Source: Candidatus Binatia bacterium (GTDB taxonomy: Bacteria > Desulfobacterota > Binatia > DP-6). From it: 64,000 nt of DNA. Position numbers and translations under genes: made by a program. Location of the stretch: NCBI GenBank assembly GCA_041496545.1, contig JBGQET010000004.1, positions 19,293 through 83,292 of the forward strand, written 5' to 3'. Of this stretch, positions 12,456 to 58,728 are shown piece after piece. Position 1 is the stretch's first letter. Each line of letters begins with the position of its first letter. Below the pieces are notes generated by a model. The model ran no database searches. It was not told the origin of the DNA and saw nothing but the letters and a program-made list of their open reading frames with translations.

Positions 12456-13297
12456 CGGCGCTCGACCCCGATACCTTGCCCGTGCTCCTCGTCGAGGAGA
12501 GCCCCACCGACCGTGCGCTGATCGCGCGCGCCCTGCGCCCGCGTCCGACGGCCGTGGCGGACGCCGAGCGCGTGCTCGACGCCGTCCGGCGGCAGTCGTT
12601 CGCGGCCGTGCTGATCGCCCACGCATTGCCCGGGCGCAGCGGGCTCGACGTGCTGCGCGAGCTGCGCTCCGCCGGGGAGACGACGCCGATCGTGCTGCTC
12701 GCCGACGCCGACGACGACGGGGTGGCGGCGGACGCGCTCCGCGCGGGTGCGGACGCCTGCGTCGTGAAGCAGCCCGGCTTCGAGCGGAGCGTGTCGCGCG
12801 CCGTGACCCAGGCGGCGCGCCAGCGCCTCCAGGTCGCCGCGGCGCCGCGCGCCGAGCCCGAGATGCTCCGCGTCCTCGTCTTCGAGATCGGGGAGCAGCG
12901 CTACGGGCTGCGGGCGGCCGACGTCTTGGAGATCGTCCCGGCGGTGACCGTGACGCCCGTCCCGGACGCGCCCGCACACGTCGAGGGCATGCTGAACCTG
13001 CGCGGGCGCGCGGTGCCGGTCGTCGACGTGCGGGCGAGCCTCGGCCTGCCGCGGCGGGCGGCCGCGCACACCGATCACCTGATCGTCGTCGGGGTGGAGG
13101 AGGGCGCCGCGGCCCTGCGCGTGGACCGCGCCACGGAGCTCGTGAGCGTGAACGCCGTCCGCCCCGACGCCGGACGGCCGGCGGGGCTGATCGAGCTCCG
13201 CGGCGAGCTGCTCTTCGTCCACGAAACGCGGCGCTTTCTCAGCCGCGAGGACCGCGCCGCGTTGGTCGCGCGCCGGGCGCCGCCGGAGGCGCGATGA
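12452..13297 (+). CDS. REC-CheW fusion protein (receiver domain followed by CheW-like domain)
   Basis: REC motifs (PVLLVEESPTDR, LIAHALPGRSG, IVLLAD), then a CheW-like domain (LRVLVFEIGEQRYGLRAADVLEIV...MLNLRGRAVPVVDV). ATGA overlap at both ends. Confidence 0.8.
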   Translation: MTALDPDTLPVLLVEESPTDRALIARALRPRPTAVADAERVLDAVRRQSFAAVLIAHALPGRSGLDVLRELRSAGETTPIVLLADADDDGVAADALRAGADACVVKQPGFERSVSRAVTQAARQRLQVAAAPRAEPEMLRVLVFEIGEQRYGLRAADVLEIVPAVTVTPVPDAPAHVEGMLNLRGRAVPVVDVRASLGLPRRAAAHTDHLIVVGVEEGAAALRVDRATELVSVNAVRPDAGRPAGLIELRGELLFVHETRRFLSREDRAALVARRAPPEAR

Positions 13298-14679
13298 CGG
13301 AGGCCGCCTGGAGTGCCCCGGCGTACGCGCTCATCGCCCGTCGTGTGCAGGCGCGGACGGGTCTCAATTTCACACCGACCTTTCGCGAGCGCGCCGAGGC
13401 GGGCATCGATCGCGCCATGGCCCGCGCCGGGTGTGGCGACCTGGCGAGCTACGTCGACCTGCTCGAGAGCCGCGGCGCCGTGCTCGACGACCTCGTCGTG
13501 GAGCTCGCCGTCGGCGAGACCTACTTCTTCCGCGAGCCGGGTCACTTCGAGGTCGTCCGCCGCTTGATCGTGCCGGAGGTCTGCGAGCGCGGCGGTCCCG
13601 CGCACGTGCTGCGCGCCTGGAGCGCCGGGTGCGCCTCGGGCGAGGAGGCGTACTCCCTGGCCATCGTCCTCGACGAGCTGGGGCACGACGCCAGCGCGCG
13701 GGTGCTGGGGACCGACATCTCCCGCCTCGCGCTCGCCAAGGCCCGGGCCGGGACCTACGGCGCGTGGTCGCTGCGCGGCGACGACGGCCTGCACGCGCGT
13801 CCGTACCTCGCCCGCGCCGGCGACCGGTACGTGGTCGCCGACGCGCTCCGGCGCCGGGTCTCCTTCGAGTACGTGAATCTCGTGCTGGACACGTATCCCT
13901 CGTACGCCAGCGGGCTCTGGGCCATGGACCTCGTCTTCTGCCGCAACGTGCTCATCTACTTCGACGCCGAGACGGTGGCGCGGGTGGCGCGCCGGCTGTT
14001 CGACACCCTGGCGCCGGGCGGCTGGCTCGTGACGGCGTCCTCCGACCCGTCGCTCGTGAACGCGGCGCCCTTCGAAGCGGTGACCACCGAAGCCGGCGTC
14101 GTCTACCGGCGCGGCCCGGCACCCGCGACGGCAGCGGCGACGCCTCCGGAGCGTCCGGCGCGAGCGTCCCTCGCCCCCGCCCGCCCGCCGCGACGACCCC
14201 GCGCCGCGGTCGCGCCTGCGGCCCGAAAGCGCGCTCGCGGTGGCCCCGCGCGGTCGGCGTCTTCCGACGCCGAGGCGAGCGCGCTCCAGGTCCGCGCGCT
14301 CGCCAACCTCGACTCCGCGGCGGCGGAGCGAGCCTGTGCGGCCGCCGCCGTCCGCCATCCGCTCTCGGCCGAGCTGCACTACCTGCGCGCCTTGCTGCTC
14401 TCCGAGCTCGGTCGCGACGCGGAAGCCGTGCAGGCGACGCGCTGCGTGCTCTACCTGGACGCCTCGCTCGCGGCCGCGCATCTGACGCTCGGCACGGTGC
14501 TCCGTCGCCTCGGCGATCGGGAGGGCGCGCGCCGCGCCTACGCCACGGCCCGGGAGCTGAGTGCCGCCCGGCCGCCCGACGAGGTCGTGCCCTTGACGGA
14601 TGGCGAGCGTGCCGGGCGGCTGCTCGAGGCCGCGGAGATGCAGCTCGCGCTGCTCGACGCTCCGGGGAGCCGGCCGTGA
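13294..14679 (+). CDS. cheR: chemotaxis protein methyltransferase CheR with C-terminal TPR-like extension
   Basis: CheR all-alpha N-domain plus SAM-MTase core ([42 protein letters not shown]), followed by an Ala-rich TPR-like C-terminus. Confidence 0.85.
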
Positions 14680-15317
14680 GCGCGCGCGGCAGGGTCCTGC
14701 GCTGGGACGAAGCGCGCGAGCGGCTCCGTCGCGCCGCGGAGACGACGGCGGCGGGCGCGGCGCTGCCGCCCGAACGTGCACGCGCGCTGATGGACGAGCG
14801 GGCCCGCCGGCTGGCGGCGCCGGCGGCGGCGACACCCGACTCGGCGCGGCGCCTCGAGATGCTGTGCCTCTCGCTCGGCGACGAACGCTACGGCGTGGAA
14901 ACGCGACACGTGCGCGAGGTGGTGCGTGCCGGCGATCTGACTCCCGTTCCGTTCACGCCCGACTTCCTGCTGGGAGTGACGAATCTCCGCGGCGAGCTGC
15001 TCGCCGTGGTGGATCTCGGGAGCTTGTTCGGCCTCCCGCCGCGCGCCGTGACGGCGTCTTCACGCGTTGTCGTGCTCGGCGCGGAGCGCGCGGAGATCGG
15101 CGCGCTTGCCGACGTCCTCGACGACGTGACCAGCATCGAGACCGCCGAGCTGCTCGACGCGCCTTCGCTGCGCGACGGGATGGCGGCACGGTTCGTGCGC
15201 GGCGTGACGGCCGAGGGCGTGGTGCTGATCGACGCGGCGGGCCTGCTCGCAGAGGACGGTCTGTTCGATCCGGAGTACAACGCGGGCGGGGAGCCCGCAG
15301 GACGGGGAGTGTCATGA
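14676..15317 (+). CDS. cheW: CheW-like coupling protein
   Basis: GTG start overlapping the cheR stop (GTGA). CheW domain motif [24 protein letters not shown]...[17 protein letters not shown]. Confidence 0.75.
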
Positions 15318-16957
15318 CGATCGGCAGGAAGATGTCGGCTGGATTCGGGGTCGCGCTGGCGATGCTGCTCGGAATCGGCACGGTGTCGTACCGCAACACC
15401 GCGAAGCTGGTCGACACAAGCACCTGGGTGACCCACACGCACACGGTGCTGGAGCACCTGACGATGCTGCTCTCGTTGATGAAGGACGAGACGCTCGCCT
15501 CGCGGGGTTACGTGATCACCGGCAAGGATGAGTTCCTCGATCCGATCCGCGGGAACAACGAGTCGGTCCAAAGAATCCGCGACGAGCTGCGCACGCTCAC
15601 CGCGGACAACGTGCGTCAACAGCGGCGGCTGGAGGAGCTGGAGGCGGCGATGCAATCGCTCGTCGCCTGGCACAAGGAAACGATCGAGACCCGGCGTAGC
15701 GCGGGCTTCGACGCTGCCATGCAGCGTGTATCGGGCGGAGGGGGGCAGAGGCTGACGGAAGAGATCGATCGTATCGTCAAGGCGATGAGAGAGGAAGAGG
15801 ACCGCCTGCTCGTCGAGCGAGATACCGAGGCCCAGGCTGCGGCCACCCAGACGTTCCGGATCATCATCCTCGGCACCTTCGCCGCCGCGGTCCTGGTGTC
15901 GGCGATCGGTATCTTCATCGTCCGTGGGATCGGCGGCGCGTTGCGCGAGCTGATGGCGGGCGCCGCCAAGATCGGCGAGGGCGCGTTCGAGCATCGCATC
16001 GCGGTGGGAACCAGGGACGAGATGGGCGAGCTCGGCGAGGCCTTCAACCGCATGTCGGAGCGCCTGCAGAGCACGACTGTGAGCGCCGAGACCGAGCGCC
16101 TGGCGCGGGGGCGGGTCGAGACCCTGCTCGGGAGCATGCGCGAGGCGGCCACGCGGCTGTCCGCGGCGGCCGCGGAGATCCTCGCCAGCACGACCCAGCA
16201 GGCCTCGGGCGCGGAGCGGCAGGCGGCGGCGACGGCGGAGACGGGCGCCGTGGTGGACGAGGTGACGCGCACCGCGGCGCAGGCGTCCGAGCAGGCGCGC
16301 AGCGTCGGCGAGGCCGTGCAGCGCACGGTGGAGATCGGGGCCGCCGGGCGCGAGGCCGTCGAGGAGTCGATGCGCGCGATGGAGACGGTGCGGGAGCAGG
16401 TCGAGTCCACGGCGGAGACGATCGTCACCCTGGCCGAGCAGGCACAGTCGATCGGCGAGATCATCGCGGCGGTGAACGAGCTGGCGGAGCAGACCAACCT
16501 GCTGGCGCTGAACGCCGCGATCGAAGCGGCGCGGGCGGGCGAGCACGGCAAGGGCTTCGCGGTGGTCGCGGGCGAGGTGAAGACGCTCGCCGAGCAGTCG
16601 AAGAAGGCGACGGCGCAGGTGCGGCAGATCCTGGGCGAGATCCAGAAGGCCACCAACGCGGCCGTCCTCTCGACGGAGGCGGTGACGAAGGGCGTCGCGA
16701 CGGCGAGCAGCATCGGCAGCCAGGCGGGGTCCACGATCACGACGCTGGCCGACACGCTCGGCGCGGCGGCGCGCGTCGCGAGCCAGATCGTCGCCGCCGC
16801 CGAGCAGCAGTCGACGGGCATGACGCAGATCCACGACGCCATGAAGAACATCGACCAGGTGGCGCGGCAGACGATGGCGGCCACCCGGCAGACGGAGCAG
16901 GCGGCGCAGAACCTGAACACGATCGGCACGCAGCTCGCGGAGCTGAGCGTCCGCTGA
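15314..16957 (+). CDS. methyl-accepting chemotaxis protein with CHASE3 sensor, HAMP and MCP signalling domain
   Basis: N-terminal TM plus CHASE3 ([12 protein letters not shown]...ASRGYVITG), second TM, HAMP, then the MCP highly conserved domain ([31 protein letters not shown]). ATGA overlap with the cheW stop. Confidence 0.85.
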
Positions 16958-16968
16958 GCGTCGGACCC

Positions 16969-19179
16969 ATGGAGCAGGCCGCCGCCGACGCCCGTTTGCT
17001 GGCCACGTTCCTCGAGGAGCTCGAGGATCGGGTGCGGGCGCTCAACGAGGACGTCCTCGCGCTCGAGCGAGACGCCGCCCCGGACGCGCCGGCGGGGCCC
17101 GCGCCGGAGCGACTCGGCGCGCTGCTCCGCACCGCACACAGCTTGAAGGGCGCCGCGCGCGCGGTGAACGTGCGGCCGGTCGAGCGCGTCTCGCACCATC
17201 TCGAGGAGCTCCTGATCGCCGTCCAGCAGGGTCGCCTCGCGGTCGGCCCGGAGCTGTGCTCGCTCCTCCTCGGGGCGGCCGACGCGATCGAGGACGCGGG
17301 CGCCCGGCTCCGAGCCGGGCAGGATCTCCGCGGCGCGCCGATCGTGGACGTGCTGGCACGGCTCGAAGCCGGCGCCGGCGCCGGCGCGTCGGGCGAGGCG
17401 GGCCCGGCGAGCGCGCCGCACGCCGTGGAGGCGACGGGGGCCGACGGCGCCGTGCGCGTCGCCGCGGAGCGGCTCGACGCGCTGCTCGCCCACACGGGCG
17501 AGCTGGTGATCGCCCGCCGGAGGGTGGAGTCACGGCGGGTGGAGGTGGCCGCGCTGCGGGAGCTGGCCGCTCGCGCGCGCCTCGAGTGGCGCGGCACGGA
17601 AAAGGCCGTGCGGGCGCTCGCGGAGCACCCGGAAAGAAGCGCGGCGGCGCTGCGACGGGGGCTCCGGCTCACTGGACGGACGGGCGGCCTGCTGCGCCGC
17701 CTCGAAGCCGAGGTGGAGGGCCTGGCCGGCGCGATGATCGGCGACGGGCGACTCCTGGCGCAGACCACGGACCCGCTCGACGACGACGTCCGTCGCATCC
17801 GCATGGTGCGCTTCGCGGAGGCGTGCGGCGGGCTCGAGCGCACGGTCCGCGACGTGGCGCGCGCGACGGGAAAGGAGATCACCGTCGTGATCGAGGGCGG
17901 CGACGTCGAGCTCGACCGCTCCGTCGTCGAGGGCGTCAAGGATCCGTTGCGTCACCTGGTGCGGAACGCCGCCGACCACGGCCTCGAGCCGCCGGCGGAG
18001 CGGCGGGCGGGCGGGAAGAACAGCCAGGGACGCATCACCGTCGGGGCGGCGCTGCGGGGCGCCCAGGTCGAGATCACGGTGCGCGACGACGGTCGTGGAC
18101 TCGACCTTGCGGGGCTCCGGGAGCGCGCGCGCGCCGCGGGGCTCGCGGCGCCCGAGGAAGCGCACGAAGCGGCGCGGCTCGTCTTCGAGCCCGGGGTCTC
18201 GACCGCGCGCGCGGTCACGGACGTCTCGGGACGCGGCGTGGGGCTCGACGTCGTCAAGACCGGCATCGAAGCGCTGCACGGCACGGTCGGCGTGGCCGTC
18301 GAGCCCGGCGGCTCCGGCGTGTGCTTCATCCTCACCGTCCCGCTGACCCTGACCTCGCTGCCCGCGCTGGTGGTGACCGTCGGGCAGCGGACGTTTGCGC
18401 TGGCGAGCGCGAACGTGGCCGCGCTCCTGCGCTTCGCGCCCGCCGACCTCCGCTCGGTCGGGGGCCGTCCCATGCTGCCCCACGGCGGACGGCTCGTGCC
18501 CGTCCTGCGACTCGCGGACAGCGTCCAGCTCGTCCCCGAAGCCCCGTCCGCCGAGCGCGCCAAGGTGGTGGCGGCGCTCGTGACCGCGGGCGAGTCGCGC
18601 GTCGCCTTCGTGGTGGACGAGCTGGTGGCGGCCCACGACGTGGTGGTGAAGAGCCTTGGGCGGCGCCTCCGGCACCTCGCGGGCGTGTCGGGCGCGACGA
18701 TCCTGCCCTCGGGCGGCGTGGCGCTCGTGCTCAACGCCGCGCACCTCGTCCGCCGCGCGCTGGGTGGCACGCCCGGCACGCCCTTCGGGCCGTCGTCGGC
18801 GGGCACGGTTGCGCCGCGCAAGCGCGTCCTCCTCGCGGACGATTCGGTCACGACCCGCGCCCTGGAGCGGAGCCTGCTCGAGGCCGCGGGCTACGAGGTG
18901 GTGCTCGCGGCGGACGGGAGGGCGGCGTGGCGGCTGCTCGAGGACAACGTTCCGGATCTCGTGGTCAGCGACGTCGACATGCCGGGGATGGACGGCTTCG
19001 CCCTGACGGAGGCGATCCGCAGCTCGCCCCGGCTGCGCGACCTGCCGGTCGTCCTCGTCACCGGGCGGGAGAGCCCGGAGGACAAGGCCCGCGGGCTGCG
19101 TGCCGGGGCGAGCGCCTACGTGGTGAAGAGCGCCTTCGATCAGAAGACGTTCCTGGACCTGCTGGCGAGCCTCGCGTGA
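16969..19179 (+). CDS. cheA: CheA histidine kinase with C-terminal receiver domain (CheA-REC hybrid)
   Basis: HPt (LRTAHSLKGAARAV), dimerisation, HATPase_c (DDGRGLD, GRGVGLD), CheW-like regulatory domain, C-terminal REC (RVLLADDSVTTR...SDVDMPGMDG...VVLVTGR). Confidence 0.85.
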   Translation: MEQAAADARLLATFLEELEDRVRALNEDVLALERDAAPDAPAGPAPERLGALLRTAHSLKGAARAVNVRPVERVSHHLEELLIAVQQGRLAVGPELCSLLLGAADAIEDAGARLRAGQDLRGAPIVDVLARLEAGAGAGASGEAGPASAPHAVEATGADGAVRVAAERLDALLAHTGELVIARRRVESRRVEVAALRELAARARLEWRGTEKAVRALAEHPERSAAALRRGLRLTGRTGGLLRRLEAEVEGLAGAMIGDGRLLAQTTDPLDDDVRRIRMVRFAEACGGLERTVRDVARATGKEITVVIEGGDVELDRSVVEGVKDPLRHLVRNAADHGLEPPAERRAGGKNSQGRITVGAALRGAQVEITVRDDGRGLDLAGLRERARAAGLAAPEEAHEAARLVFEPGVSTARAVTDVSGRGVGLDVVKTGIEALHGTVGVAVEPGGSGVCFILTVPLTLTSLPALVVTVGQRTFALASANVAALLRFAPADLRSVGGRPMLPHGGRLVPVLRLADSVQLVPEAPSAERAKVVAALVTAGESRVAFVVDELVAAHDVVVKSLGRRLRHLAGVSGATILPSGGVALVLNAAHLVRRALGGTPGTPFGPSSAGTVAPRKRVLLADDSVTTRALERSLLEAAGYEVVLAADGRAAWRLLEDNVPDLVVSDVDMPGMDGFALTEAIRSSPRLRDLPVVLVTGRESPEDKARGLRAGASAYVVKSAFDQKTFLDLLASLA

Positions 19180-19189
19180 GGGCCGTGGG

Positions 19190-20218
19190 ATGATCCGGAT
19201 CCTGGTCGTGGACGACTCACCCACCGCCCGCCAGAGCCTGGTGCAGGTCCTGCAGGCAGACCCGGAGGTGCAGATCGTCGGCGAGGCAAGCGACGGGCTC
19301 GAGGCCGTCGAGATGACGCGTCGCCTGCGACCGGATCTCGTGACCATGGACGTCCAGATGCCGCGCATGGACGGCTACGAGGCGACGAAGGAGATCATGA
19401 TCGAGTCGCCGACGCCGGTCGTGGTGGTGACCGCCGGCCTGGGCGACCCGGAGGTGTCCGCGTCGATGCGGGCGCTGCGTGCCGGCGCGGTCTGCGTGCT
19501 CCAGAAGCCTCCCGGTCCGGGTGCGCCGGGGCACGCGCGCGAGGCGCAGCAGATCCTGGAGACGGTGAAGGCGATGTCGCAGGTGCGCGTGGTGCACCGC
19601 ATCCGCCAGCCGGCACCGCCCGTGGCCGCGCCGCGCGGTCCGAAGCCGGTCCGGGTGGTCGCGATCGCGGGGTCCACGGGAGGCCCGGGCGTCCTGCACC
19701 AGATCCTCTCGGCGCTGCCCGGGGACTTCCCGGTGCCGATCCTCGTCGTGCAGCACATGACGGTGGGCTTCACGCCAGGCCTGGCCTCGCACCTGGGCGG
19801 CGGCTCGCCGCTGCGCGTGAAGGTGGCGGAGGCGGGCGACACGCTCGCGCCCCACACCGTGTACCTCGCCCCGGACGATCGTCACCTGATGGTGTCCGGA
19901 GCGGGCAGCGTCACGCTCTCGGACGCGCCCGCCGTCGGCGGCTTCCGGCCCTCGGCGAGCGTGCTCTTCGAGTCGGTGGCGAAGGCGTTCGGGTCGGGCA
20001 CCGTGGCCGTCGTGCTGAGCGGCATGGGCGAGGACGGCGTGGCGGGGTTGCGGGCGGTGAAGCAGGCGGGCGGCCGCGTCGTGGTCCAGGACGAGGAGAC
20101 GTCGGTCGTCTTCGGCATGCCCGGCGCGGCCATCACCGCGGGCCTCGCCGAGCGGGGAATCCCGGCCGGTGCGATCGCGGGGACGTTGCTGACGCTCGCC
20201 TCGGGAGCGGCGGCATGA
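19190..20218 (+). CDS. cheB: chemotaxis response regulator protein-glutamate methylesterase CheB (REC plus CheB_methylest)
   Basis: REC (RILVVDDSPTAR, VTMDVQMPRMDG) and methylesterase catalytic domain (VVAIAGSTGGPGVL, ILVVQHM, VVLSGMGEDG). Confidence 0.85.
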   Translation: MIRILVVDDSPTARQSLVQVLQADPEVQIVGEASDGLEAVEMTRRLRPDLVTMDVQMPRMDGYEATKEIMIESPTPVVVVTAGLGDPEVSASMRALRAGAVCVLQKPPGPGAPGHAREAQQILETVKAMSQVRVVHRIRQPAPPVAAPRGPKPVRVVAIAGSTGGPGVLHQILSALPGDFPVPILVVQHMTVGFTPGLASHLGGGSPLRVKVAEAGDTLAPHTVYLAPDDRHLMVSGAGSVTLSDAPAVGGFRPSASVLFESVAKAFGSGTVAVVLSGMGEDGVAGLRAVKQAGGRVVVQDEETSVVFGMPGAAITAGLAERGIPAGAIAGTLLTLASGAAA

Positions 20219-21504
20219 CGCGCGTGCTGATCGTCGAGGACAGCCGGACGCAGGCGACTCGGCTCGAGACCATCCTCGGCGACGCCGGCTTCCAGGTGGA
20301 CGTCGCGCGGGACGGCCTCGAAGGCTACGAGCGCTGCCGGGCGAGCCGCTTCGACGTCGTGTTGAGCGACGTCGTCATGCCGGGGCTCTCGGGCTTCGAG
20401 CTCTGCCGCCGCATCAAGGCGGACCCGGTCACGCGCGACGTCCCGGTGATCCTGCTCACCATGCTGAGCGATCCGGGCAACATCATGGACGCGCTGGTGA
20501 GCGGCGCGGCGAACTTCATCAACAAGCCGTACGACCCCGAGTATCTGGTCGCGCGCGTGAACCAGGTGGTCGCGAACCGGCGGCTGCGTGCCGAGCGTCC
20601 CGCGGGCGCGGGGACGGAGGTCTTCTTCCTCGGCAAGCGGCTCGCGGTCGATTGCGAGGAGGAGCAGATCCTCGACCTCCTCGTCTCGAGCCTGGAGGAC
20701 ACCATCCGGGTGAACCAGAAGCTCCAGGCGAGCCAGGCGGCGCTCGAAGAGGCCGACCGGCAGATCCGCGCCCAGAACAAGGAGCTGGAGGCCTTCGTCT
20801 ACACGGCGTCCCACGACCTGAAGGCACCGCTGCGCGGGGTGGAGGGCATGAGCCGGATACTGGTCGAGGACTACTCCCAATCCCTCGACGACGAGGGCCG
20901 GCGCTACCTCGACCTCGTCCGCGACTCCGCGGCGCGCATGCACCAGTTGATCGACGACCTGCTCGCGTTCGCCCGCGTCGGCCGCCAGCAGACCCCGGTG
21001 GTGAGCGTCGACGTGCGGGCGGCCCTGAGCGACGTGCTGGCGACGCTCCGCTTCTCGCTCGACGAGGTGGGCGCGACGGTCGCCCTGCCCGCGGACGCGC
21101 CGACGGCTTCGGGCCACCCGGTCCTCGTGAAGGAGCTGTTCACGAACCTGATCGGCAACGCGCTCAAGTACCGCCGTCCAGCGACCGCGCCGCGCATCGT
21201 GGTGACGTGGCGTCCCGTCGAGGCGGGAGGGCTCGAGGTGGCGGTGGCGGACGACGGCATCGGGGTGCCGGCCGAGCATCGCGAGCGGGTGTTCGAGCTC
21301 TTCAAGCGGCTGCACGGACAGGACGAGTACCCCGGCACGGGCGTCGGCCTCGCGATCTGCAAGAGGATCGTCGAGGAGCACGGCGGCGAGATCGCTCTCG
21401 AGGAGACACCGGGCGGAGGATGCACGGTGCGCTTCACGCTGCGGGCGGCGGCCGTGGCGGCGGGCGCACGCCGGCGCGAGCCCGAATCGTCGTCGGCGCA
21501 CTGA
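20215..21504 (+). CDS. hybrid response regulator-histidine kinase (REC-HisKA-HATPase_c), terminal gene of the che-like operon
   Basis: ATGA overlap with cheB. REC (RVLIVEDSRTQ, VLSDVVMPGLSG), HisKA (ASHDLKAPLRGV), HATPase_c (NLIGNALKY, DDGIGV, GTGVGLAI). Confidence 0.8.
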   Translation: MTRVLIVEDSRTQATRLETILGDAGFQVDVARDGLEGYERCRASRFDVVLSDVVMPGLSGFELCRRIKADPVTRDVPVILLTMLSDPGNIMDALVSGAANFINKPYDPEYLVARVNQVVANRRLRAERPAGAGTEVFFLGKRLAVDCEEEQILDLLVSSLEDTIRVNQKLQASQAALEEADRQIRAQNKELEAFVYTASHDLKAPLRGVEGMSRILVEDYSQSLDDEGRRYLDLVRDSAARMHQLIDDLLAFARVGRQQTPVVSVDVRAALSDVLATLRFSLDEVGATVALPADAPTASGHPVLVKELFTNLIGNALKYRRPATAPRIVVTWRPVEAGGLEVAVADDGIGVPAEHRERVFELFKRLHGQDEYPGTGVGLAICKRIVEEHGGEIALEETPGGGCTVRFTLRAAAVAAGARRREPESSSAH

Positions 21505-21526
21505 CCTCGACGGCGAGTGGCGCTAC

Positions 21527-21943
21527 TCAGGAGCCGCTTTTCGGCGACTGTCCCGGCGTGCAGGGCATGCCCGGCGCCTTGATGACCATCTGGCGGTTGC
21601 CGAACTGGTCGAATCCCGTCTGGTCGGGCACCTTGCCCTTCGGACACTTGAGCTTGTAGCAGAACATCGGCGCGTCGAATGGCTGGCCGCCCGGGGCGCC
21701 GGGCGGGTTGCCCGCGGTGATGACCTTGTCGACGGGGCTGCAGATGAGCTTCGCCGGCACCTTGACCACGCAGCCGGATTCCTGCGGGAAGGTCCCGCCG
21801 CTCGGCGTCAGGTTGACGACGTACGCCGCCTTGGGCGCCGGGTCCTTCACCGTGTAGCACTTGAGGTGGTCGGCGGCGTGCGCGGGAGCCGCCAACAGCC
21901 CGGCGGCGAGGAGGGTGAGCAACGTCGTTGTCGTTCGCGTCAT
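21527..21943 (-). CDS. small secreted six-cysteine protein (paralog 1)
   Basis: Signal peptide MTRTTTTLLTLLAAGLLAAPAHA, then ADHLKCYTVKD...ESGCVVKVPAKLICSPV...FCYKLKCPKG...MPCTPG. High GC3. Tandem paralog immediately upstream. Confidence 0.6.
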   Translation of the reverse strand: MTRTTTTLLTLLAAGLLAAPAHAADHLKCYTVKDPAPKAAYVVNLTPSGGTFPQESGCVVKVPAKLICSPVDKVITAGNPPGAPGGQPFDAPMFCYKLKCPKGKVPDQTGFDQFGNRQMVIKAPGMPCTPGQSPKSGS

Positions 21944-21952
21944 GGCCGTCAA

Positions 21953-22389
21953 TCAGGTGTTCCCGGCCGGCACGTCGGCCGGGGCGCAGAGGATGGTCGG
22001 CTTCTTCACGGTCACCGTGCGGTCGCCGAACTGGTCCTTCATGCCGATCTGGAAGGTGTCCTGCTTCGGACACTTGATCTTGTAGCAGGCGTACTGGTGG
22101 ACGCGCGGCTGGCCCTGCGGCGCGCCGGGCGGGTTCCCACCCGTGACGATTTTGGAGATCGGATATCAGAGCAACGTGGCGGGCACCTTGACGGTGCAGC
22201 CCGTCTCGTTGGGGAACGCCGCGCTGAAGAGCGGAGTCAGCGTGGCGGTGTACGTCGCCTTCGCCGCGCTGTCCTTCCCCTTGTAGCACTTGAGGTGGTC
22301 GGTGAGGACGCCGGGTCCGGCCGTGGCCGTCCCGCCGAGCACGAGCCCGAGGCCGAGCGCGCAAGAAAGTTTGGAGCCTCGAGCGGCAT
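21953..22389 (-). pseudogene. paralog 2 of the six-cysteine secreted protein, interrupted by an in-frame TGA (22166-22168) at a conserved Cys position; pseudogene or candidate selenoprotein
   Basis: The segments ...DHLKCYKGKD...ETGCTVKVPATLL-TGA-YPISKIVTGGNPPGAPQGQP...CYKIKCPKQ...ILCAPA... align gap-free with paralog 1. The TGA falls exactly on Cys of LIC in paralog 1. No in-frame start codon lies upstream of the signal-like region; the nearest ATG (22387-22389) is in the -1 frame. Confidence 0.4.
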
Positions 22390-22623
22390 GGGGTCGCCTT
22401 CGTGGTAGACCCGCGGCGCGGCGTCGACGCCGATCTCCACCCCGCGCGTGAACACGCACATGCCCGTCGTCGGATCCCAGCCGCACGCCGCGCAGCCCGC
22501 GCGGCAGCGCTTCGGCTGGCGGTTCGGATCGCCCTGGACGCCGTTGGTGTAGTCGCAGCTCCAGCGCAGACCCTCGTCGCGGTTCACGAGCAGGAACGGC
22601 TTCGGGATGTCCTTGACGGGCAT
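22390..22623 (-). CDS. small Cys-rich hypothetical protein segment (78 codons, no in-frame stop before the next coding segment)
   Basis: ATG 22623. Product MPVKDIPKPFLLVNRDEGLRWSCDYTNGVQGDPNRQPKRCRAGCAACGWDPTTGMCVFTRGVEIGVDAAPRVYHEGDP has very high GC3. The frame then loses coding signal while another frame gains it. Confidence 0.4.
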
Positions 22624-22629
22624 GTGATT

Positions 22630-23140
22630 CGATCGCCTTCATGACCTTCGACGAGAGCTTCGCGCCTCCCTGCGGCATCCCGTCGCCCGAGCCCGCGGCC
22701 AGGGCCGCGGGTTGGCCGACGAGGCTCGCGTAGGACAGCTCCTCGTTGTCGAGCACCAGCTCGCCCTTGCGACCGCCTGCCGAATGGCACGAAGGCAGGG
22801 CGCAGCTCGCGGCGAACGTTCCCTGGATGGCGCGGAACGGCCGGATGCCGCGCCCGCAGGCGAGCGCCGCCTCGCAGCGGGTGGTGGCGGCCTTGCACCG
22901 GCGCGCCAGCACCCCGTCGGAGACGGCCGAGGCGACCTGCCGCCGCACGCACTGCATGTATTGTGGCAGGTTCGAGACGCCGGCGCAGTCACACGCCCGG
23001 GCGATGCGATCGCGGGCGGTCGCGATCGCCGCCACGGGACAGCTCGTGCTTCCGCAGCTCGCGTCGTCGCGCGCCGAGGCGAGCCCGACCGTTACGAGGA
23101 GAGCCGCGCCCGTGAGCGTGCCGACGATGGCTCGATGCAC
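22630..23140 (-). CDS. secreted Cys-rich hypothetical protein (gene X); C-terminus undefined because no stop codon occurs in its frame
   Basis: GTG 23140 gives signal peptide MHRAIVGTLTGAALLVTVGLASA, then about 150 residues with 12 Cys at high GC3. Coding signal ends near 22630 (KVMKAIE) where the MPVKD frame begins. Confidence 0.5.
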
Positions 23141-23640
23141 GCGTCCAGGCAGCCGTCGTGAGACGATCGATTTGGGGCGCACGCAGTGAGGAACGGATGG
23201 TGACGGACGATGGGGGTCGCTCGTGCCCGTCTTCTGGACCCGACGTTCCATGCGCCGCGTCCTGGTCCGAAGCATCGTGACCGGATGCGGGCGCCGTCGA
23301 TGCTGCGGACGCCTCGGTGCGAACGCGGAGATGCCGCGCGGGCCTTCGTCGACGTCCCAGGGGGTGGGAACGCCGATTCCCTCCCTCCTGGGACCGCCCG
23401 GTCCCTCCGCCCGCCCGGGCGGTGCCTAGCGGGCCTGTCGCATGTGCGCCACCAGACGGGCCTCGGGTTGGCGCTTGGTTTGCAACGAGCCCGGCAAGGA
23501 CTCGAGTGCAGTCACCATGACCGCAAACGGAAGACGTTCGACACGACAGATGCACACACGGGCGACTCACAGCCCGTTGCGACGATTTCCCGCCTCCATA
23601 TCGGGGGCGGCGGTAACCCCAGAATGGGAGGGTGGGAACA

Positions 23641-24033
23641 ATGGCTAGTCCGGTAAACGTTCGAAGCAATGCGGTCTATGGGACCGCGACGGGTTTTCAG
23701 GTGACCTGGAGGTACTTCATCCTGGCCGCGGTCGGCGTGTTCCTGATCGCTCCGGTCTTCGTCGACCGGAATCTCAACGAACCCCACATGATTCTGACCG
23801 TGATCCTGGGTTCGATGATGATCGCGCTCGCCGCTTCGAAGATCCTGGCGACCGTGGATGGGCGGGCGCTCCGCCTGGCCTTCGCCGTCCTGGGGGCGTT
23901 GTTCGCAGTGCTCCCGTGGCTCGCTCCCGAGCAGTCGAACCCGCTCGGTACGTACCACGTCCTGTCTCACCTCGTCTCCGGCGGGATCGTTCTCACCCTG
24001 TCGCTGGCGCACATCGGCGACGCCAACAAGTAG
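23641..24033 (+). CDS. small integral membrane protein (4 predicted TM helices)
   Basis: GGGAGGG about 8 nt upstream of ATG 23641. Hydrophobic segments FILAAVGVFLIAPVF, ILTVILGSMMIALAA, LAFAVLGALFAVLPWL, LVSGGIVLTLSL. Confidence 0.6.
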   Translation: MASPVNVRSNAVYGTATGFQVTWRYFILAAVGVFLIAPVFVDRNLNEPHMILTVILGSMMIALAASKILATVDGRALRLAFAVLGALFAVLPWLAPEQSNPLGTYHVLSHLVSGGIVLTLSLAHIGDANK

Positions 24034-24309
24034 GGTGGCCGAACCGGGGAGCCTGTCCAGGTACCACTCGGGCTGCGGCGAACGAGTGGGCCACCCAGAA
24101 CGGCCGGTGCCGCGTCGTGAAGAAACGACGACGCGCGCCGGCCGGTCGCCGCACACTCCGACAGCTCTGCACTTCGAAGACTCGTTGCGGTCGCTTGAAC
24201 GACGGACGAGAGCGTTTCGGCCTCATTACTTCTAGCCCGCAAGCGGCGTCGAATCGGAAGCGCGGCTCGAGGAAGCCCGGCTGGGGAGAGTGAGGTCCGA
24301 CGACAGGTC

Positions 24310-24984
24310 ATGCGGTGTCCGCGACGCCCTGACGTCCGCCCTCGCTCACCGATTGCCGACGCGGAGCGTCCCCACCGCCGGCGCCACCTGTTCCACGCCG
24401 CGGTCGTTCACGGCCACCGCGTCGACGGTGTACGTTCGTGCGCCGGGGCGCGGCCGGAGGGCGAGGGTGACACCCGACGTCACGCGCTCGCCGTAGTCGA
24501 CGCGAACGGCAAGCTCGTGGGAATGGTAAACGGGGCCTCCTCATCGCCTTGGCTCGTGGTCGGTGTCTTGGACTTCGGGATCACTCCTGTCGTACGACGG
24601 GTAGGAGATACCGTCGTGCAGTTCATCGTCGATGCTACTAGCTTGCAGGTGCCCGTGCAGGGGAATCCGATTCCCACTGACTTGGTGTTTCCAGCGCCGA
24701 ATTGTACCGGAACACCGTTGGTCCCCGTCGATCGATTCTCCCTCATCAGTGCCGTTTGGGATGAGGCTGATGTCTTTCGCTATGCGATTCTTCCGGGCAG
24801 TCCTCGGACTTGGGAGTCGATCGCGTTCTTCATCACAGATGGTTCACCGTGTTCAGGTACGCTGCTTCCGGGTGGACGATGCTGCGTGAACAAACCGGGC
24901 GGTCCCAAGAACCTTGCCGACACGGCGCTTTTTGACCTAAGCGCGATCGGCCTCGTTGTTCCGTTCCACGTCGAAGGGCCATAG
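24310..24984 (+). pseudogene. N-terminally degraded copy of the secreted-protein family represented by 36995..37750
   Basis: Residues from ALAVVDANGKLVGMV to the C-terminal GGRCCVNKPGG...LVVPFHVEGP align with 36995..37750 (VKDANGVLVGTVV...AGRCCTDGST...LVPPFHVETP). No signal peptide and no convincing start. The upstream GARPEGEGD looks like a decayed collagen-like triplet region. Lower GC. Confidence 0.4.
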
Positions 24985-25540: not shown

Positions 25541-26462
25541 ATGGTCAAACGCTCTTGGATTCGGAGTGCGTCGCTCGGAGCGGCCGTGATCGTCTGTGCG
25601 CTGCTTATCGGCTCCCCGCCTGTCCGTGCCGACGGCACTCTGCAGCACGTCAAGCACATCATCATCGTGATGCAGGAGAACCGCTCATTTGACAACTACT
25701 TTGGCGTGCTGCCGTTCGTGCCCAACACGCCGTACCACAGTGCCAAGGGCCGGAGACGCCGCGCGTGCGCGGCCAGCGACCACACCTGCGTCGACGGTCT
25801 GTCCTGCAAGATGAAACGGGGAACGCTCGTCTGCTCGAACGTCAATCGAAGCAACACCCATGGCGCCGTCAGATCCTTCCATGACCCGCGGTACTGTATG
25901 GGGCTGGACCTCACTCACGGCTGGGTAGCCAGCCATAGACAGGGCAACTTCTCGCACCCGAACAACATGCTCCGATCGAGCCCCAATCGGGGGTTTGTCA
26001 GAGTTGATGCGCAGGCCAACCCAGTAGATCAAGCAACCGATCACGACACGATGGGTTACTACACCGACGCCGATCTGCCCTTCTACTATGGTCTCGCCGA
26101 ATCGTTTGCGATCAGCGATCGCTACTTCGCCGCAGTCATCGGTCCGACCTTTCCGAACCGCGCGTACTTCCTGGCGGGGACCTCGTTCGGCCACCTGTCT
26201 ACGAGTGAGACTATCACCGGCGGAGGCTACAAGCCTCGGCTCTCATACGTCATTGCTGGCGCTCCTCGAGAAGCGCTTCTCGCTCCAGAGTCTCACTGCC
26301 CGGGATGCGAACGCCGACGATCTCGAGGACATGTTCGACTTCGACAACTCGCCGTCCGCGAATGTAGCGATCGGCACCGCACCACTGCCGATGCAGCCCG
26401 GGGATCCCAACTGCCCCTTCGGTGGATCGCCTGGCGGCGCCCTTGTGGATGGCGCCGGCTAG
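25541..26462 (+). pseudogene. phosphoesterase family (phospholipase C / AcpA-like) gene remnant with frameshift and internal deletion
   Basis: N-terminal signal peptide plus HVKHIIIVMQENRSFDNYFGVLP signature (frame 1 to about 26250), then a shift to another frame for the conserved C-terminal TARDANADDLEDMFDFDN motif (to stop 26462). Total about 307 aa versus 400-700 for intact family members. Confidence 0.55.
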
Positions 26463-26491
26463 AGCATCCCTCCCGCCTGCCGCGCGGCGGT

Positions 26492-27373
26492 TCAGCGCGC
26501 TCTGACCTCCCATGCGGGATCGACCATCGTGTCGCGGAGCTCCCACAGGAGGCGCCGGTTGTCGAGGTACCGCCACGGGTGGAAGTCGTACCGATGGTAG
26601 GCGGCGACGGCGCGCCAGCGACCCCGCAGCATCCCGCCGCGCCCGAAGACGAAACGGATGAGGTCCCGCCACGCGTGGAGGTCCTGCGCCGCGCCGGCGC
26701 TGGCGAGGATGCGGTGTGAGACCGATGGGAGCGCAAGGGCGAGGAGGACGACGGCGATCCACAGCCCGGCGATGCGGACGGCGTAGGTGTAGAACCCGTG
26801 GCCGCGTGCCGCGTGGAACGTGTCGAAGAGCACCGCCTTGTGCTCCACCTCCTCGTAACCGTGCCACCGGAACAGCCGGGCGATGCGAGGGTCGACGCCG
26901 TCGAGCAGCTCCGGCCGCGAGAGGATCGCGTTGCCGATCTCGCTGAGGAAGTGCTCGCCCGCCATGGCGACCGCGCTCCTGAGATCGCTCGAGGTCCAGT
27001 CGACGACCGCGAGCCATCGCAGCACGGAATCGGCAACGGGCTCGACCGGCACGCCCCACCGAATGAGCAACCGGTTGAACGCCGCGTGCATGCTGGCGTG
27101 GGCGGCCTCCTGGCGAAGGAAGGCATCGCCCTCGGCGCGCCGCTCCTCATCGGCGATGCGGGGCAGCAGGCGGCGGACGTCGTCGATGAAGAAGCCCTCC
27201 ACCACCGGCGCCATCACCGAGAGCGCCTCGAGGAACACCGTGGGCCCGATGCCGGCCGGGTGCCAGGCGCGCGGCACCTCGTCCTCGAGGCCATCGAAGT
27301 CGAAGCCGGGCCGCCGCGGCGTGACCGTGACGCCCAACCCGCAGGTGGAGGCGGGATTTACCCGACGATCCAT
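26492..27373 (-). CDS. predicted metal-dependent hydrolase (COG3687 / PF10118-like)
   Basis: WHPAGIGPTVFLEALSVMAPVVEGFFIDDV ... GYEEVEHKAVLFD pattern typical of this family; high GC3. Confidence 0.65.
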   Translation of the reverse strand: MDRRVNPASTCGLGVTVTPRRPGFDFDGLEDEVPRAWHPAGIGPTVFLEALSVMAPVVEGFFIDDVRRLLPRIADEERRAEGDAFLRQEAAHASMHAAFNRLLIRWGVPVEPVADSVLRWLAVVDWTSSDLRSAVAMAGEHFLSEIGNAILSRPELLDGVDPRIARLFRWHGYEEVEHKAVLFDTFHAARGHGFYTYAVRIAGLWIAVVLLALALPSVSHRILASAGAAQDLHAWRDLIRFVFGRGGMLRGRWRAVAAYHRYDFHPWRYLDNRRLLWELRDTMVDPAWEVRAR

Positions 27374-57969: not shown

Positions 57970-58728
57970 CTAGCGGAACAGGTCGAACTCGGGGCTGCGC
58001 ACGAGCCGGCGCGCGGCGCCGCCCGGCCCCGGCGTGTAGCGGACGCCGCGCACGATCGCGGCCGCCACGCCGCTGTCCTTCTCCATCACCAGGCCCGCGG
58101 CGGCGGCCACCTCGTCGGCCAGCGCGACGACGGTGTGGTGCAGCGTACGCCCGGCGAGGTCGGCGCGACCGCGCAGGTCGAGCAGCGGGTCCATCCCCGC
58201 GCAGCCGAGCGCGACCTCGACCAGCCCCTCGCGCCACGGCCGCCCGAAGGTGTCGGTGACGACGACCGCCAGCTCGACGCCGAAGCGCGTTCGCAGGCGC
58301 TCGCAGAGCGCGGCGGCCGAGGCGTCGGCGTCGCGCGGCAGCAGCGTCAGCACCTCGGGCGCGACGCCGTTCGACTCGTCCACGCCGGCGTTGGCGCAGA
58401 CCCAGCCGTGGCGCGTCTCGCAGATGACGTGCCCGCGGTCCATGCGGACGACGCGCGCCGTCTCGCGCAGCACGACCTCCATGACGCGCGGGTCCTTGCC
58501 GCCCTCGCTCCGCGCCGCGAGCCGCTCGGCGAAGGGCGACGCCGTCACGTCGGCGAGGCGCACCACGGCGCCCTCGGCCTTGGACACGACCTTCTGGCAG
58601 ACGGCCACCACGTCGCCCGCCTTGACGCCGACGCGCGCCGCCTCGATCGCGTCGCCGAGGAGGAGCGTGAGGTCGTCCCCGGGCTTCACCATGGGCAGCC
58701 CGGGGATGGGGATGACGGCCACCGTCAT
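57970..58728 (-). CDS. cofE: coenzyme F420-0:L-glutamate ligase
   Basis: MTVAVIPIPGLPMVKPGDDL... CofE family N-terminus; 252 aa; ATG 58728 abuts the cofD stop. Confidence 0.8.
   Translation of the reverse strand: MTVAVIPIPGLPMVKPGDDLTLLLGDAIEAARVGVKAGDVVAVCQKVVSKAEGAVVRLADVTASPFAERLAARSEGGKDPRVMEVVLRETARVVRMDRGHVICETRHGWVCANAGVDESNGVAPEVLTLLPRDADASAAALCERLRTRFGVELAVVVTDTFGRPWREGLVEVALGCAGMDPLLDLRGRADLAGRTLHHTVVALADEVAAAAGLVMEKDSGVAAAIVRGVRYTPGPGGAARRLVRSPEFDLFR

What the first reader, a model, noticed from the sequence alone, without database searches (positions are those of the whole stretch)
22126..22168. In-frame TGA exactly at a conserved cysteine in a tandem paralog pair: selenocysteine candidate or fresh nonsense mutation
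The two adjacent secreted six-Cys proteins (21527..21943 and 21953..22389) align without gaps. Paralog 2 has TGA (22166-22168) precisely where paralog 1 has Cys (AKLICSPVDKVI vs ATLL-TGA-YPISKIV). The 70 codons downstream of the TGA remain conserved with very high GC3, so the downstream part is not decaying. TGA-for-Cys is the classic selenoprotein signature. A GC hairpin (CGGGUGG-GAAC-CCGCCCG, 22126..22143) lies 23-40 nt downstream in mRNA sense, within the distance range expected for a bacterial SECIS. However, paralog 2 also lacks an in-frame start codon, which favours the pseudogene reading.
Basis: partly seen in the sequence, partly recalled or inferred. Interest (0 to 1): 0.6.

Follow-up and report, generated by a model that had tools for sequence, protein, structure and literature searches.

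The report
Broken gene copy, not a selenoprotein
The stop codon sitting where a conserved cysteine should be is a recent knockout mutation in a duplicate gene that has also lost its start, next to another wrecked gene, so it is an ordinary young pseudogene and not a hidden selenocysteine site.

Summary
On the minus strand, TGA (22168-22166) lies at a cysteine column that is Cys in paralog 1, in 14 database homologues and in 117/117 unique family copies from other genomes and metagenomes. The TGA and its surroundings are 100% identical in 10 independently assembled contigs, so it is not a sequencing error.

The selenocysteine reading is not supported:
- No homologue has TGA at this position.
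- Paralog 2 has lost its start codon and the first residues of its signal peptide to a deletion.
- That deletion also removed the last 27 codons of the upstream gene, a ~675-aa secreted-protein gene that additionally lacks ~320 central codons and changes frame.
- The hairpin does meet the loose published bSECIS constraints. However, 16% of all TGA triplets in this 71% GC window do too (3% at equal stability), and its stem is the codons for Gly-Gly-Asn-Pro-Pro-Gly.
- TGA is the normal stop here (15 of 21 Pfam-supported genes), and TGC to TGA is one base change.

The coding sequence is otherwise undecayed, scoring 123.6 bits on the family HMM against 109.2 for intact paralog 1, so the inactivation is recent. 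The Sec machinery outside the window could not be checked. Verdict: a young pseudogene in a decaying locus, of low interest.

The parts
21527..21943 (-). Paralog 1: an intact gene for a small secreted six-Cys protein (138 aa; ATG 21943, stop TGA 21529-21527). It has TGC (21742-21740) at the column where paralog 2 has TGA.
   Evidence: The exact protein (P0001) is called in 19 public contigs. GC3 is 0.90-1.00. Family HMM score is 109.2 bits.
21953..22380 (-). Paralog 2: a pseudogene of the same family. What remains is most of the signal peptide (from ..GSKLSCALGLGLVLGGTATA) plus the whole mature domain. It has no start codon and an internal TGA. Its own stop is TGA 21955-21953.
   Evidence: With Cys restored it scores 123.6 bits on an HMM of 117 outside members.
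22166..22168 (-). In-frame TGA at the third conserved Cys of the family. It is one base away from TGC, the usual Cys codon here.
   Evidence: 117/117 Cys in outside members. TGC:TGT = 96:12, and TGA is the stop of 15/21 Pfam-supported genes. It is identical in 10 independent contigs.
22126..22143 (-). A 7-bp GC hairpin with a GAAC loop, with 29 nt between the TGA and the loop. The stem arms lie in the codons GGT GGG / CCG CCC G and the loop (G-AAC) spans the Gly-Asn codons, within ACG GGT GGG AAC CCG CCC GGC (T-G-G-N-P-P-G).
   Evidence: -12.1 kcal/mol; it passes the loose bSECIS constraints, as do 15.6% of all TGA triplets, 2.8% at equal stability; 10-12% of positions have a hairpin of at least 7 bp starting 5-30 nt downstream; no Rfam SECIS match.
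22340..22342 (-). The only in-frame start-type codon (GTG) upstream of the mature domain. It lies inside the hydrophobic core of the signal peptide (the V of LGLGLVLGG), so starting there would give a protein without an export signal.
   Evidence: Read directly.
22381..22629 (-). Remnant B: an 83-codon piece in a different frame (GC3 frame k=0). It matches residues 565-648 of a ~675-aa secreted protein family (P0016; also P0017, P0020, P0026, P0027). It ends at ...EGDPMPL, and the 27 C-terminal residues found in homologues (VFGELADDDMCNMFGYF...) are missing.
   Evidence: 60% identity to P0016, E 2e-29.
22610..23140 (-). Remnant A: the N-terminal part of the same ~675-aa gene, with a probable start at GTG 23140 and a signal peptide. 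It aligns to P0016 residues 8-251, with in-frame gaps of 51 and 22 residues. It is followed directly by remnant B in another frame, so about 320 central codons are missing.
   Evidence: (E 6e-26), (frame switch near 22640). The sequence is shown.
22166..23275 (-). An open frame of 369 codons, which public gene callers report as a 361-aa 'hypothetical protein'. It is a chimera made of remnant A, an out-of-frame reading of remnant B, and the N-terminal half of paralog 2, and it ends at the TGA.
   Evidence: In one search, GC3 in this frame drops to 0.35-0.55 over most of 22620-22410 (two overlapping windows reach 0.75-0.80), while the other frame has 0.90-1.00 through 22440.

Best explanation
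Paralog 2 is a recently inactivated pseudogene inside a small decaying locus.

Ancestral state (inferred): three minus-strand genes in a row. The first encoded a ~675-aa secreted Cys-rich protein. The other two were tandem copies of a ~140-aa secreted six-Cys protein.

What the sequence shows now:
1. The large gene has lost about 320 central codons, with a change of frame.
2. A second deletion removed its last 27 codons, its stop, the spacer, and the start codon of paralog 2 with at most a few N-terminal residues.
3. Paralog 2 carries a single-base TGC-to-TGA change at an invariant cysteine that probably forms a structural disulfide.

TGA works here as the ordinary stop codon. Any translation entering from the upstream chimeric frame ends there, and the 70 codons after it are not translated. 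Paralog 1 stays intact and presumably supplies the function.

The remaining paralog 2 sequence still looks fully family-like because too little time has passed for further decay. The hairpin after the TGA is a by-product of GC-rich Gly (GGN) and Pro (CCN) codons, which are complementary to each other.

Shown: the lesions, their positions, and their presence in every sampled contig. Inferred: the order of events, and that no protein is made.
For: - TGA at a column that is Cys in 14 database homologues and in 117/117 unique outside copies. There is no in-frame stop in 57 genome copies or 82 metagenome copies.
- No ATG, GTG or TTG is placed so as to give a signal peptide. All homologues start with Met plus a signal peptide.
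- The upstream DNA is a wreck of a larger gene. Remnant B matches residues 565-648 of P0016 (675 aa), at E 2e-29 against P0016 in the direct comparison with the window; the library search gave hits from E 1.7e-27, P0016 at 6.2e-27. Remnant A matches residues 8-251 at E about 1e-25. The two are in different frames and abut near 22630. The 27 C-terminal residues are absent.
- The GC3 frame profile independently shows the coding frame switching at about 22640 and again at about 22390.
- The lesions are real. The 2-kb sequence is identical (0-1 mismatches) in 10 contigs from different samples and assemblers, and these contigs differ from one another at 19 sites elsewhere.
- TGA ends 15 of 21 Pfam-supported genes and TGC is 89% of Cys codons, so one C-to-A change is enough.
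- The hairpin is not specific.
- Another family copy with a frameshift or deletion exists in an unrelated metagenome contig (L096), so loss of copies happens in this family.
Against: - Apart from the two lesions, paralog 2 shows no decay. It keeps every invariant family residue, has GC3 of 0.80-1.00, and scores higher on the family HMM than intact paralog 1, 123.6 against 109.2 bits. Its post-TGA half alone scores 60.1 against 43.7.
- The hairpin formally satisfies the published bSECIS consensus: 4-nt loop starting with G, 7-bp stem, 29-nt spacing, -12.1 kcal/mol. It is in the top 3-8% for stability in this window (model from PMC13188914).
- No polymorphism is seen in paralog 2 among the 10 contigs, although the numbers are too small to weigh.
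- The presence or absence of selA, selB, selC and selD in the rest of the genome could not be checked.
- No close orthologue (more than 53% identity) was found that would show the ancestral TGC directly.
Confidence: 0.9

Rival explanations
1. The TGA encodes selenocysteine. Paralog 2 would be a secreted selenoprotein in which Sec replaces a cysteine, possibly forming a selenylsulfide, and the hairpin at 22143-22126 would act as a bacterial SECIS bound by SelB.
For: - TGA lies exactly at an invariant Cys column.
- The sequence downstream is fully conserved.
- The hairpin meets the loose consensus bSECIS constraints of PMC13188914, and only 2.8% of TGA triplets have one as stable.
- The TGA is fixed in all 10 sampled contigs.
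Against: - There is no start codon able to give the signal peptide. The 5' end was cut off by a deletion that also truncated the neighbouring gene.
- 0 of about 130 other family copies have TGA at this column. TGA-containing homologues in other organisms are a standard filter for new selenoproteins (PMC13188914).
- The cysteine is one of six in a small exported all-beta domain. Cys4 and Cys6 are lost together in 7 members, which is the behaviour of structural disulfides, and there is no CxxC/CxxU-type redox motif. From established knowledge, bacterial Sec sits almost always in redox active sites.
- The loop reads GAAC, not the usual G[G/U] pattern.
- The region folds no better than shuffles (z = -0.69).
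- There is no Rfam SECIS hit.
- The stem is dictated by the G-G-N-P-P-G codons.
- There is no tRNA-Sec or sel gene in the 64-kb window.
Confidence: 0.03
2. The TGA and the frame changes are sequencing or assembly errors in a metagenome-assembled genome, and the real organism has TGC and intact genes.
For: The window comes from a MAG-type, 71% GC source, where indel errors can mimic frameshifts (for the GC content).
Against: The 2-kb region is identical in 8 of 10 contigs assembled independently from different samples by different pipelines (NCBI MAGs, JGI, Logan). The other two differ at one unrelated base. These contigs carry real strain variation elsewhere, 19 sites in 6.4 kb, so they are not copies of a single assembly. 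Losing about 320 codons is not an error type of any sequencing platform.
Confidence: 0.01
3. The 361-369-aa open frame (23275/23251..22166) is a real, newly formed fusion gene. It would consist of the signal peptide and N-terminal domain of the large protein, a linker, and the first half of the six-Cys domain, with the TGA serving as its proper stop.
For: - The frame is open over 369 codons, and every public gene caller reports it.
- It begins with a plausible signal peptide and a conserved N-terminal Cys-rich module.
- It is fixed in the population.
Against: - Over about 22620-22410 the frame has GC3 of 0.35-0.55 in most windows (two reach 0.75-0.80), while another frame has 0.90-1.00 through 22440 and encodes the conserved remnant B. 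The 'linker' is therefore an out-of-frame, Arg-rich reading of old coding sequence.
- Long open frames arise by chance at 71% GC; 149 ORFs of at least 150 aa are listed in 64 kb.
- Half a disulfide-bonded domain, with 3 of its 6 Cys, is unlikely to fold.
- This reading is still a consequence of the same gene decay, not an alternative to it.
Confidence: 0.05
4. TGA is read through or reassigned in this organism (for example to Trp or Gly), so paralog 2 is translated in full.
For: None beyond the conserved downstream sequence.
Against: TGA terminates 15 of 21 Pfam-supported genes in the window, including paralog 1 and paralog 2 themselves. The missing start remains unexplained.
Confidence: 0.01

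Closest known systems
Bacterial pseudogenes formed by a nonsense substitution plus a 5' deletion in one copy of a tandem duplicate
   Same: - One disabling point mutation at a conserved residue and one deletion removing the start.
- An intact paralogue sits next door.
- The neighbouring gene is also degraded.
- The lesions are fixed in the population.
- Gene callers report a chimeric 'hypothetical protein'.
   Different: The remaining sequence shows no further decay at all, so it is very young. Lack of expression was not tested.
Bacterial selenoprotein genes recognised by Cys/Sec pairs with a downstream bSECIS (for example fdhF-type genes, and candidates from bSECISearch or deep-Sep)
   Same: An in-frame TGA aligned with Cys in homologues, conserved sequence on both sides, and a stem-loop with a G-initial apical loop 29 nt after the TGA. 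That spacing is within the 16-37 nt of the consensus model (PMC13188914).
   Different: - No start codon.
- No TGA-containing homologue in about 130 copies.
- The cysteine looks structural (a disulfide in an exported domain), not catalytic.
- The loop lacks the usual G[G/U].
- The hairpin is explained by Gly/Pro codons.
- The Sec machinery has not been shown.
Pfam DUF7450 (repeat of unknown function)
   Same: Paralog 2 gives a weak sub-threshold match (E 2.4e-4, 21.3 bits against a cutoff of 27) over residues 60-136.
   Different: The match is below the gathering score, and paralog 1 has no match. The family of about 140-aa secreted six-Cys proteins has no curated family, and the model of paralog 1 has no PDB fold match.

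Membership tests
Bacterial selenoprotein gene (Sec-UGA) | In-frame UGA aligned with Cys (or Sec) in homologues | tested here: met
   TGA 22168-22166 aligns with the invariant Cys.
Bacterial selenoprotein gene (Sec-UGA) | bSECIS stem-loop just downstream: 3-9 nt loop with G in its first two positions, 4-16 bp stem, 16-37 nt spacing, MFE of -7.5 kcal/mol or lower (PMC13188914) | tested here: inconclusive
   The hard constraints are met (GAAC loop, 7 bp, 29 nt, -12.1 kcal/mol). However, 15.6% of all TGA triplets and 21% of ordinary Cys codons in the window also pass. The usual G[G/U] is absent. The fold z-score is -0.69 and there is no Rfam match. bSECISearch itself was not available.
Bacterial selenoprotein gene (Sec-UGA) | TGA-containing homologues in other organisms | tested here: not met
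   0 of 57 genome copies, 0 of 82 metagenome copies, and 117/117 unique copies have Cys. Caveat: the closest outside copy is only about 50% identical, and the metagenome list kept only the best 80 of 253 matches.
Bacterial selenoprotein gene (Sec-UGA) | Complete translatable ORF (start codon, here with signal peptide) spanning the UGA | tested here: not met
   There is no in-frame ATG, GTG or TTG before the signal-peptide core. The only candidate, GTG 22342, lies inside it. The 5' end is replaced by a remnant of the upstream gene.
Bacterial selenoprotein gene (Sec-UGA) | selA, selB, selC (tRNA-Sec) and selD present in the genome | not testable with these tools
   None is in the 64-kb window.
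Bacterial selenoprotein gene (Sec-UGA) | Sec located at a redox-active site | tested here: inconclusive
   There are six invariant Cys in a small exported all-beta domain with no CxxC-type motif. Cys4 and Cys6 are lost together in 7 members, which points to structural disulfides. No biochemical data exist.
Pseudogene (disabled copy of a protein-coding gene) | Disabling lesion relative to intact homologues | tested here: met
   A nonsense codon at an invariant Cys cuts off 70 of about 116 mature-domain codons.
Pseudogene (disabled copy of a protein-coding gene) | Independent second lesion or loss of expression signals | tested here: met
   The start codon and upstream region were deleted, and the junction lies directly after ...EGDPMPL of the truncated upstream gene.
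Pseudogene (disabled copy of a protein-coding gene) | Lesions are genuine and not assembly artefacts | tested here: met
   They are identical in 10 contigs from different samples and assemblers.
Pseudogene (disabled copy of a protein-coding gene) | Relaxed selection (accumulating substitutions or indels) | tested here: not met
   No decay is detectable: 123.6 bits on the family HMM against 109.2 for paralog 1, and GC3 of 0.80-1.00. This is expected if the inactivation is recent, so it dates the event and does not contradict it.
Pseudogene (disabled copy of a protein-coding gene) | No full-length protein product | not testable with these tools
   This needs transcript or proteome data from the source community.

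The most novel reading that the evidence does not exclude
Paralog 2 is translated after all, for example from the upstream chimeric frame or from an unrecognised start, and its UGA is decoded as selenocysteine through the GGN/CCN hairpin. That would give the first exported bacterial protein with a selenylsulfide in place of a structural disulfide, in a Binatia-like lineage.
Probability: 0.02. Interest if true: 0.8.

Novelty: already known. Interest (0 to 1): 0.1.

Why it matters
It matters mainly as a cautionary example. A TGA aligned with a conserved Cys, conserved downstream sequence and a hairpin that fits the SECIS model look like the classic signs of a selenoprotein. In a 71% GC genome, a young pseudogene can show all three.

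The features that decide the case lie outside the flagged 43 bases: the missing start, the wrecked neighbouring gene, and the lack of any TGA homologue.

There is also a practical point for annotation. Public gene calls for this locus report a 361-aa 'hypothetical protein' that is a chimera of three unrelated reading frames.

If the Sec reading were true, it would be a notable extension of selenoprotein biology to exported structural cysteines. The evidence makes that very unlikely.

Tried and rejected
- **Close orthologues of paralog 2.** A protein search with paralog 2 (Cys restored) found a single hit, at 49% identity. The single-protein scan of metagenome contigs matched 600 pattern stretches, none confirmed. 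The family-profile scans of genome contigs and metagenome contigs returned only copies of 53% identity or less. The ancestral codon could therefore not be read directly from a sister strain.
- **Sec machinery.** There is no tRNA-Sec in the window or in 48 fetched loci from other genomes (uninformative). Pfam on 30 window proteins found no SelA, SelB or SelD.
- **Literature.** There were no papers with 'Binatia' plus 'selenocysteine' and none naming the assemblies or samples.
- **Rfam.** An E-value-mode search around the site gave only chance-level hits to unrelated families.
- **Promoter and terminator scan** of 21400-23700 found nothing.
- **Synteny.** The ~675-aa gene family is not next to six-Cys genes in the other genomes fetched; there was only a weak N-terminal motif hit in L052. 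The P0016 contig ends 250 bp after the gene. No intact version of the three-gene arrangement was found.
- **Fold search.** The paralog 1 model (pLDDT 76.7) had no match in the PDB at E of 0.001 or better, so the fold gives no functional lead.
- **Sequencing error, stop-codon reassignment and a genuine fusion gene** were considered and rejected. The reasons are given under the rival explanations.

Full report
**1. The observation**

All relevant features are on the minus strand.

- Paralog 1 (21943..21527) is an intact 138-aa gene with an ATG start, a signal peptide and six cysteines.
- Directly upstream, its stop abutting the start region of paralog 1, lies a second copy. This copy reads in frame from about 22380 to TGA 21955-21953 and has an internal TGA at 22168-22166.
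- With Cys placed at the TGA, the two copies are 50% identical over 118 residues (E 1e-38) with one 1-residue gap. The TGA falls on the Cys of KLICSP.
- In a 15-sequence alignment that column is invariant.
- In a profile alignment of 117 unique copies from other genomes and metagenomes it is Cys in 117/117.
- The hairpin CGGGUGG-GAAC-CCGCCCG is at 22143-22126 as described.

Small corrections: the alignment is not gap-free. One in-frame GTG (22342-22340) exists, but it lies inside the hydrophobic core of the signal peptide.

**2. Not an artefact**

The exact paralog 1 protein is called on 19 public contigs. Ten were fetched:

- two NCBI MAGs (GCA_041491345.1 and GCA_041492335.1);
- three JGI metagenomes;
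- five Logan assemblies of separate sequencing runs.

Across 21400-23400, eight of the ten are 100% identical to the window. The other two differ at one base (22968), outside paralog 2. Over the wider 6.4 kb the contigs differ at 19 sites in varying combinations, so they sample a real population and are not copies of one assembly. The TGA and the frame changes described below are genuine and fixed in that population.

**3. What surrounds the TGA**

A GC3 frame profile of the minus strand shows the coding frame switching twice:

| Region | Coding frame |
|---|---|
| about 23130-22650 | k=2 |
| about 22640-22400 | k=0 |
| about 22380 onward (paralog 2, then paralog 1) | k=2 |

An exhaustive HMMER search with the middle piece found 16 relatives. 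Its residues 2-82 match a near-C-terminal stretch of much longer proteins:

- 568-649 of P0016 (675 aa);
- 323-403 of P0020 (429 aa);
- 580-653 of P0026 (715 aa);
- 502-589 of P0027 (616 aa).

The full-length homologues continue after ...EGDPMPL with VFGELADDDMCNMFGYF.... In the window the homology stops exactly at MPL (22381).

The first piece (23116-22610) aligns to residues 8-251 of P0016 (E about 1e-25) with in-frame gaps of 51 and 22 residues.

So the 0.75 kb upstream of paralog 2 is the wreck of one ~675-aa secreted-protein gene. About 320 central codons are gone, with a frame change near 22630, and the last 27 codons are gone as well.

That second deletion runs into paralog 2. What remains of the signal peptide begins ..GSKLSCALGLGLVLGGTATAGPGVL-TDHLKCY, whereas homologues begin M-(K/R)-x-x-hydrophobic. 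The start codon and at most a few residues were removed, together with the spacer and any ribosome-binding site.

The 361-369-aa open frame that public gene callers report is a chimera. It consists of remnant A, an out-of-frame Arg-rich reading of remnant B, and the N-terminal half of paralog 2, and it is closed by the TGA.

**4. Tests of the selenocysteine reading**

- **Homologues.** There was no in-frame stop in 57 family copies in 49 loci from GTDB species genomes, mostly Candidatus Binatia, Myxococcota and "Deltaproteobacteria" MAGs with some Gemmatimonadota. There was none in 82 copies in 80 metagenome loci either. TGA-bearing homologues are a standard criterion for accepting a new selenoprotein (PMC13188914).
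[quoted passage not shown] The hairpin formally meets this: loop GAAC, 7 bp, 29 nt, -12.1 kcal/mol.
- **Hairpin against background.** I implemented those constraints with perfect stems on the whole window. 15.6% of the 1199 TGA triplets pass, and 2.8% are as stable. For 103 ordinary in-frame Cys codons the figures are 21% and 7.8%.
- **Hairpin, other measures.** A generic hairpin of at least 7 bp starts 5-30 nt after 10-12% of all positions. The 69 nt after the TGA fold no better than shuffles (z = -0.69). The matching region of paralog 1, which has TGC, folds better (-30.1 kcal/mol, z = -1.77). No Rfam family is matched.
- **Origin of the stem.** The stem is made of the codons GGT GGG AAC CCG CCC GGC (G-G-N-P-P-G). 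Gly and Pro codons are complementary, so a GC-rich G-x-P motif forms such a hairpin automatically.
- **Nature of the cysteine.** It is one of six in a small exported domain that AlphaFold models as all-beta (pLDDT 76.7). Cys4 and Cys6 are lost together in 7 members, which is how structural disulfides behave. There is no CxxC/CxxU-type motif. From established knowledge, bacterial Sec residues are almost always catalytic redox residues.
- **Stop-codon usage.** TGA is the ordinary stop (15 of 21 Pfam-supported genes) and TGC the ordinary Cys codon (96:12), so one C-to-A change produces the observed state.
- **Sec machinery.** The window has no tRNA-Sec, and no SelA, SelB or SelD among 30 proteins scanned. 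The rest of the genome could not be reached.

**5. What argues the other way**

- Paralog 2 is otherwise pristine. It keeps every invariant family residue and has GC3 of 0.80-1.00.
- On an HMM built from 117 outside members it scores 123.6 bits, against 109.2 for the intact paralog 1. Training members score 80-141, median 129.
- The half after the TGA scores 60.1 against 43.7.

It is what a functional gene would show, and it is equally what a pseudogene younger than about 1% divergence would show. The population carrying it differs by only 0.02-0.17% from the window, so at most about one further change would be expected in 420 bp. This dates the knockout as recent and does not contradict it.

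**6. Best explanation**

This is a small decaying locus. Two deletions wrecked the 675-aa gene, and the second also decapitated paralog 2. Paralog 2 also carries a TGC-to-TGA nonsense change. The order of these events is unknown.

TGA acts as a plain stop. Paralog 1 remains intact and presumably carries the function. Confidence is about 0.9.

Rival readings and their confidence:

| Reading | Confidence |
|---|---|
| Selenocysteine | 0.03 |
| The chimeric ORF is a real fusion gene ending at the TGA (itself a product of the same decay) | 0.05 |
| Assembly error | 0.01 |
| Stop-codon reassignment or read-through | 0.01 |

**7. Comparison with known things**

- **Selenoprotein genes.** The locus resembles a selenoprotein gene in three classic features: a Cys/TGA pair, downstream conservation and a hairpin. 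It fails two tested membership criteria: there are no TGA homologues, and there is no translatable ORF. It cannot be filed as a selenoprotein gene.
- **Pseudogenes.** It meets the defining features of a pseudogene: two independent disabling lesions relative to intact homologues, genuine and fixed. It lacks only the accumulated decay that comes with age.
- **The six-Cys family itself.** It is uncharacterised. There is no Pfam family, only a sub-threshold DUF7450 match, and no PDB fold match. That is a side observation.

**8. Verdict**

The flagged feature is real but ordinary: a young pseudogene. Interest is low (0.1), and the kind of thing is already known.

The most novel reading not strictly excluded is an exported selenoprotein with a selenylsulfide. 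It has a probability of about 2% and could be settled by checking the two public MAGs for the Sec machinery and the raw reads for intact haplotypes.

Noticed in passing
window 22166-23275 (-); same gene at L001 1693-2778: NCBI, JGI and Logan gene calls list a 361-aa 'hypothetical protein' here. By GC3 and homology it is a chimera of three pieces: remnant A, an out-of-frame reading of remnant B, and half of paralog 2. This is an annotation artefact that is now in public protein databases.
   Followed up: yes
window 21527-21943 and loci L011-L140: The ~140-aa secreted six-Cys family has no Pfam family. It has 253 confirmed relatives in JGI metagenomes, and among genomes it occurs mainly in Binatia, Myxococcota, 'Deltaproteobacteria' and Gemmatimonadota MAGs, often as tandem pairs (L019, L023, L027, L046, L049). 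Cys4 and Cys6 are replaced together in 7 members, which implies a Cys4-Cys6 disulfide. The AF2 model is all-beta (pLDDT 76.7) with no PDB fold match. Its function is unknown.
   Followed up: partly
window 22381-23140 (-); P0016, P0026, P0027: The wrecked upstream gene belongs to an uncharacterised family of 600-715-aa secreted proteins. Members have an N-terminal Cys-rich module, a C-x4-CH motif (SCALPSCHS) and a conserved C-terminus ...EGDPMPLVFGxLADDDMCNMFGYF. Five members scanned had no Pfam hit.
   Followed up: partly
window 18527-24943 (contigs L001-L010): There are 19 polymorphic sites among the 10 population contigs. Of these, 17 lie in the CheA-CheB-response-regulator/kinase genes (18763-21001), with a cluster at 19777-20107 that looks like a recombined tract. 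Only one (22968) lies in the pseudogene stretch, and none lies in either paralog.
   Followed up: partly
L096 3990-4226: A second family copy on an unrelated metagenome contig is split between two frames and lacks the middle of the domain (signal peptide and DHLNCFKVKD in one frame, ...CCDAVDK...CCYQVKCPK... in another). This is another decayed member, or an assembly indel.
   Followed up: partly
window 25541-26719 (+) and 26492-27373 (-): The 392-aa ORF matches only positions 1-153 of the 356-position Phosphoesterase profile. It overlaps a well-supported Metal_hydrol gene on the other strand by about 230 bp, so it may be another truncated gene or an over-extended ORF.
   Followed up: no
window 13294-21504 and 57970-62042: Gene context from Pfam. 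There is a chemotaxis cluster (CheR, a CHASE3-HAMP MCP, a CheA-CheW-receiver hybrid, CheB, and a receiver-histidine kinase) immediately downstream of paralog 1 on the other strand. There are also F420 biosynthesis genes (F420 ligase, CofD, a radical SAM protein). No selenium-related genes were found.
   Followed up: partly
L060 5218-5295 (-); L012 11882-11973 (-): ARAGORN calls a tRNA-Val inside the P0016 coding sequence and a 92-nt tRNA-Gly in a Binatia contig. Both look like possible false positives or unusual tRNAs in GC-rich DNA.
   Followed up: no
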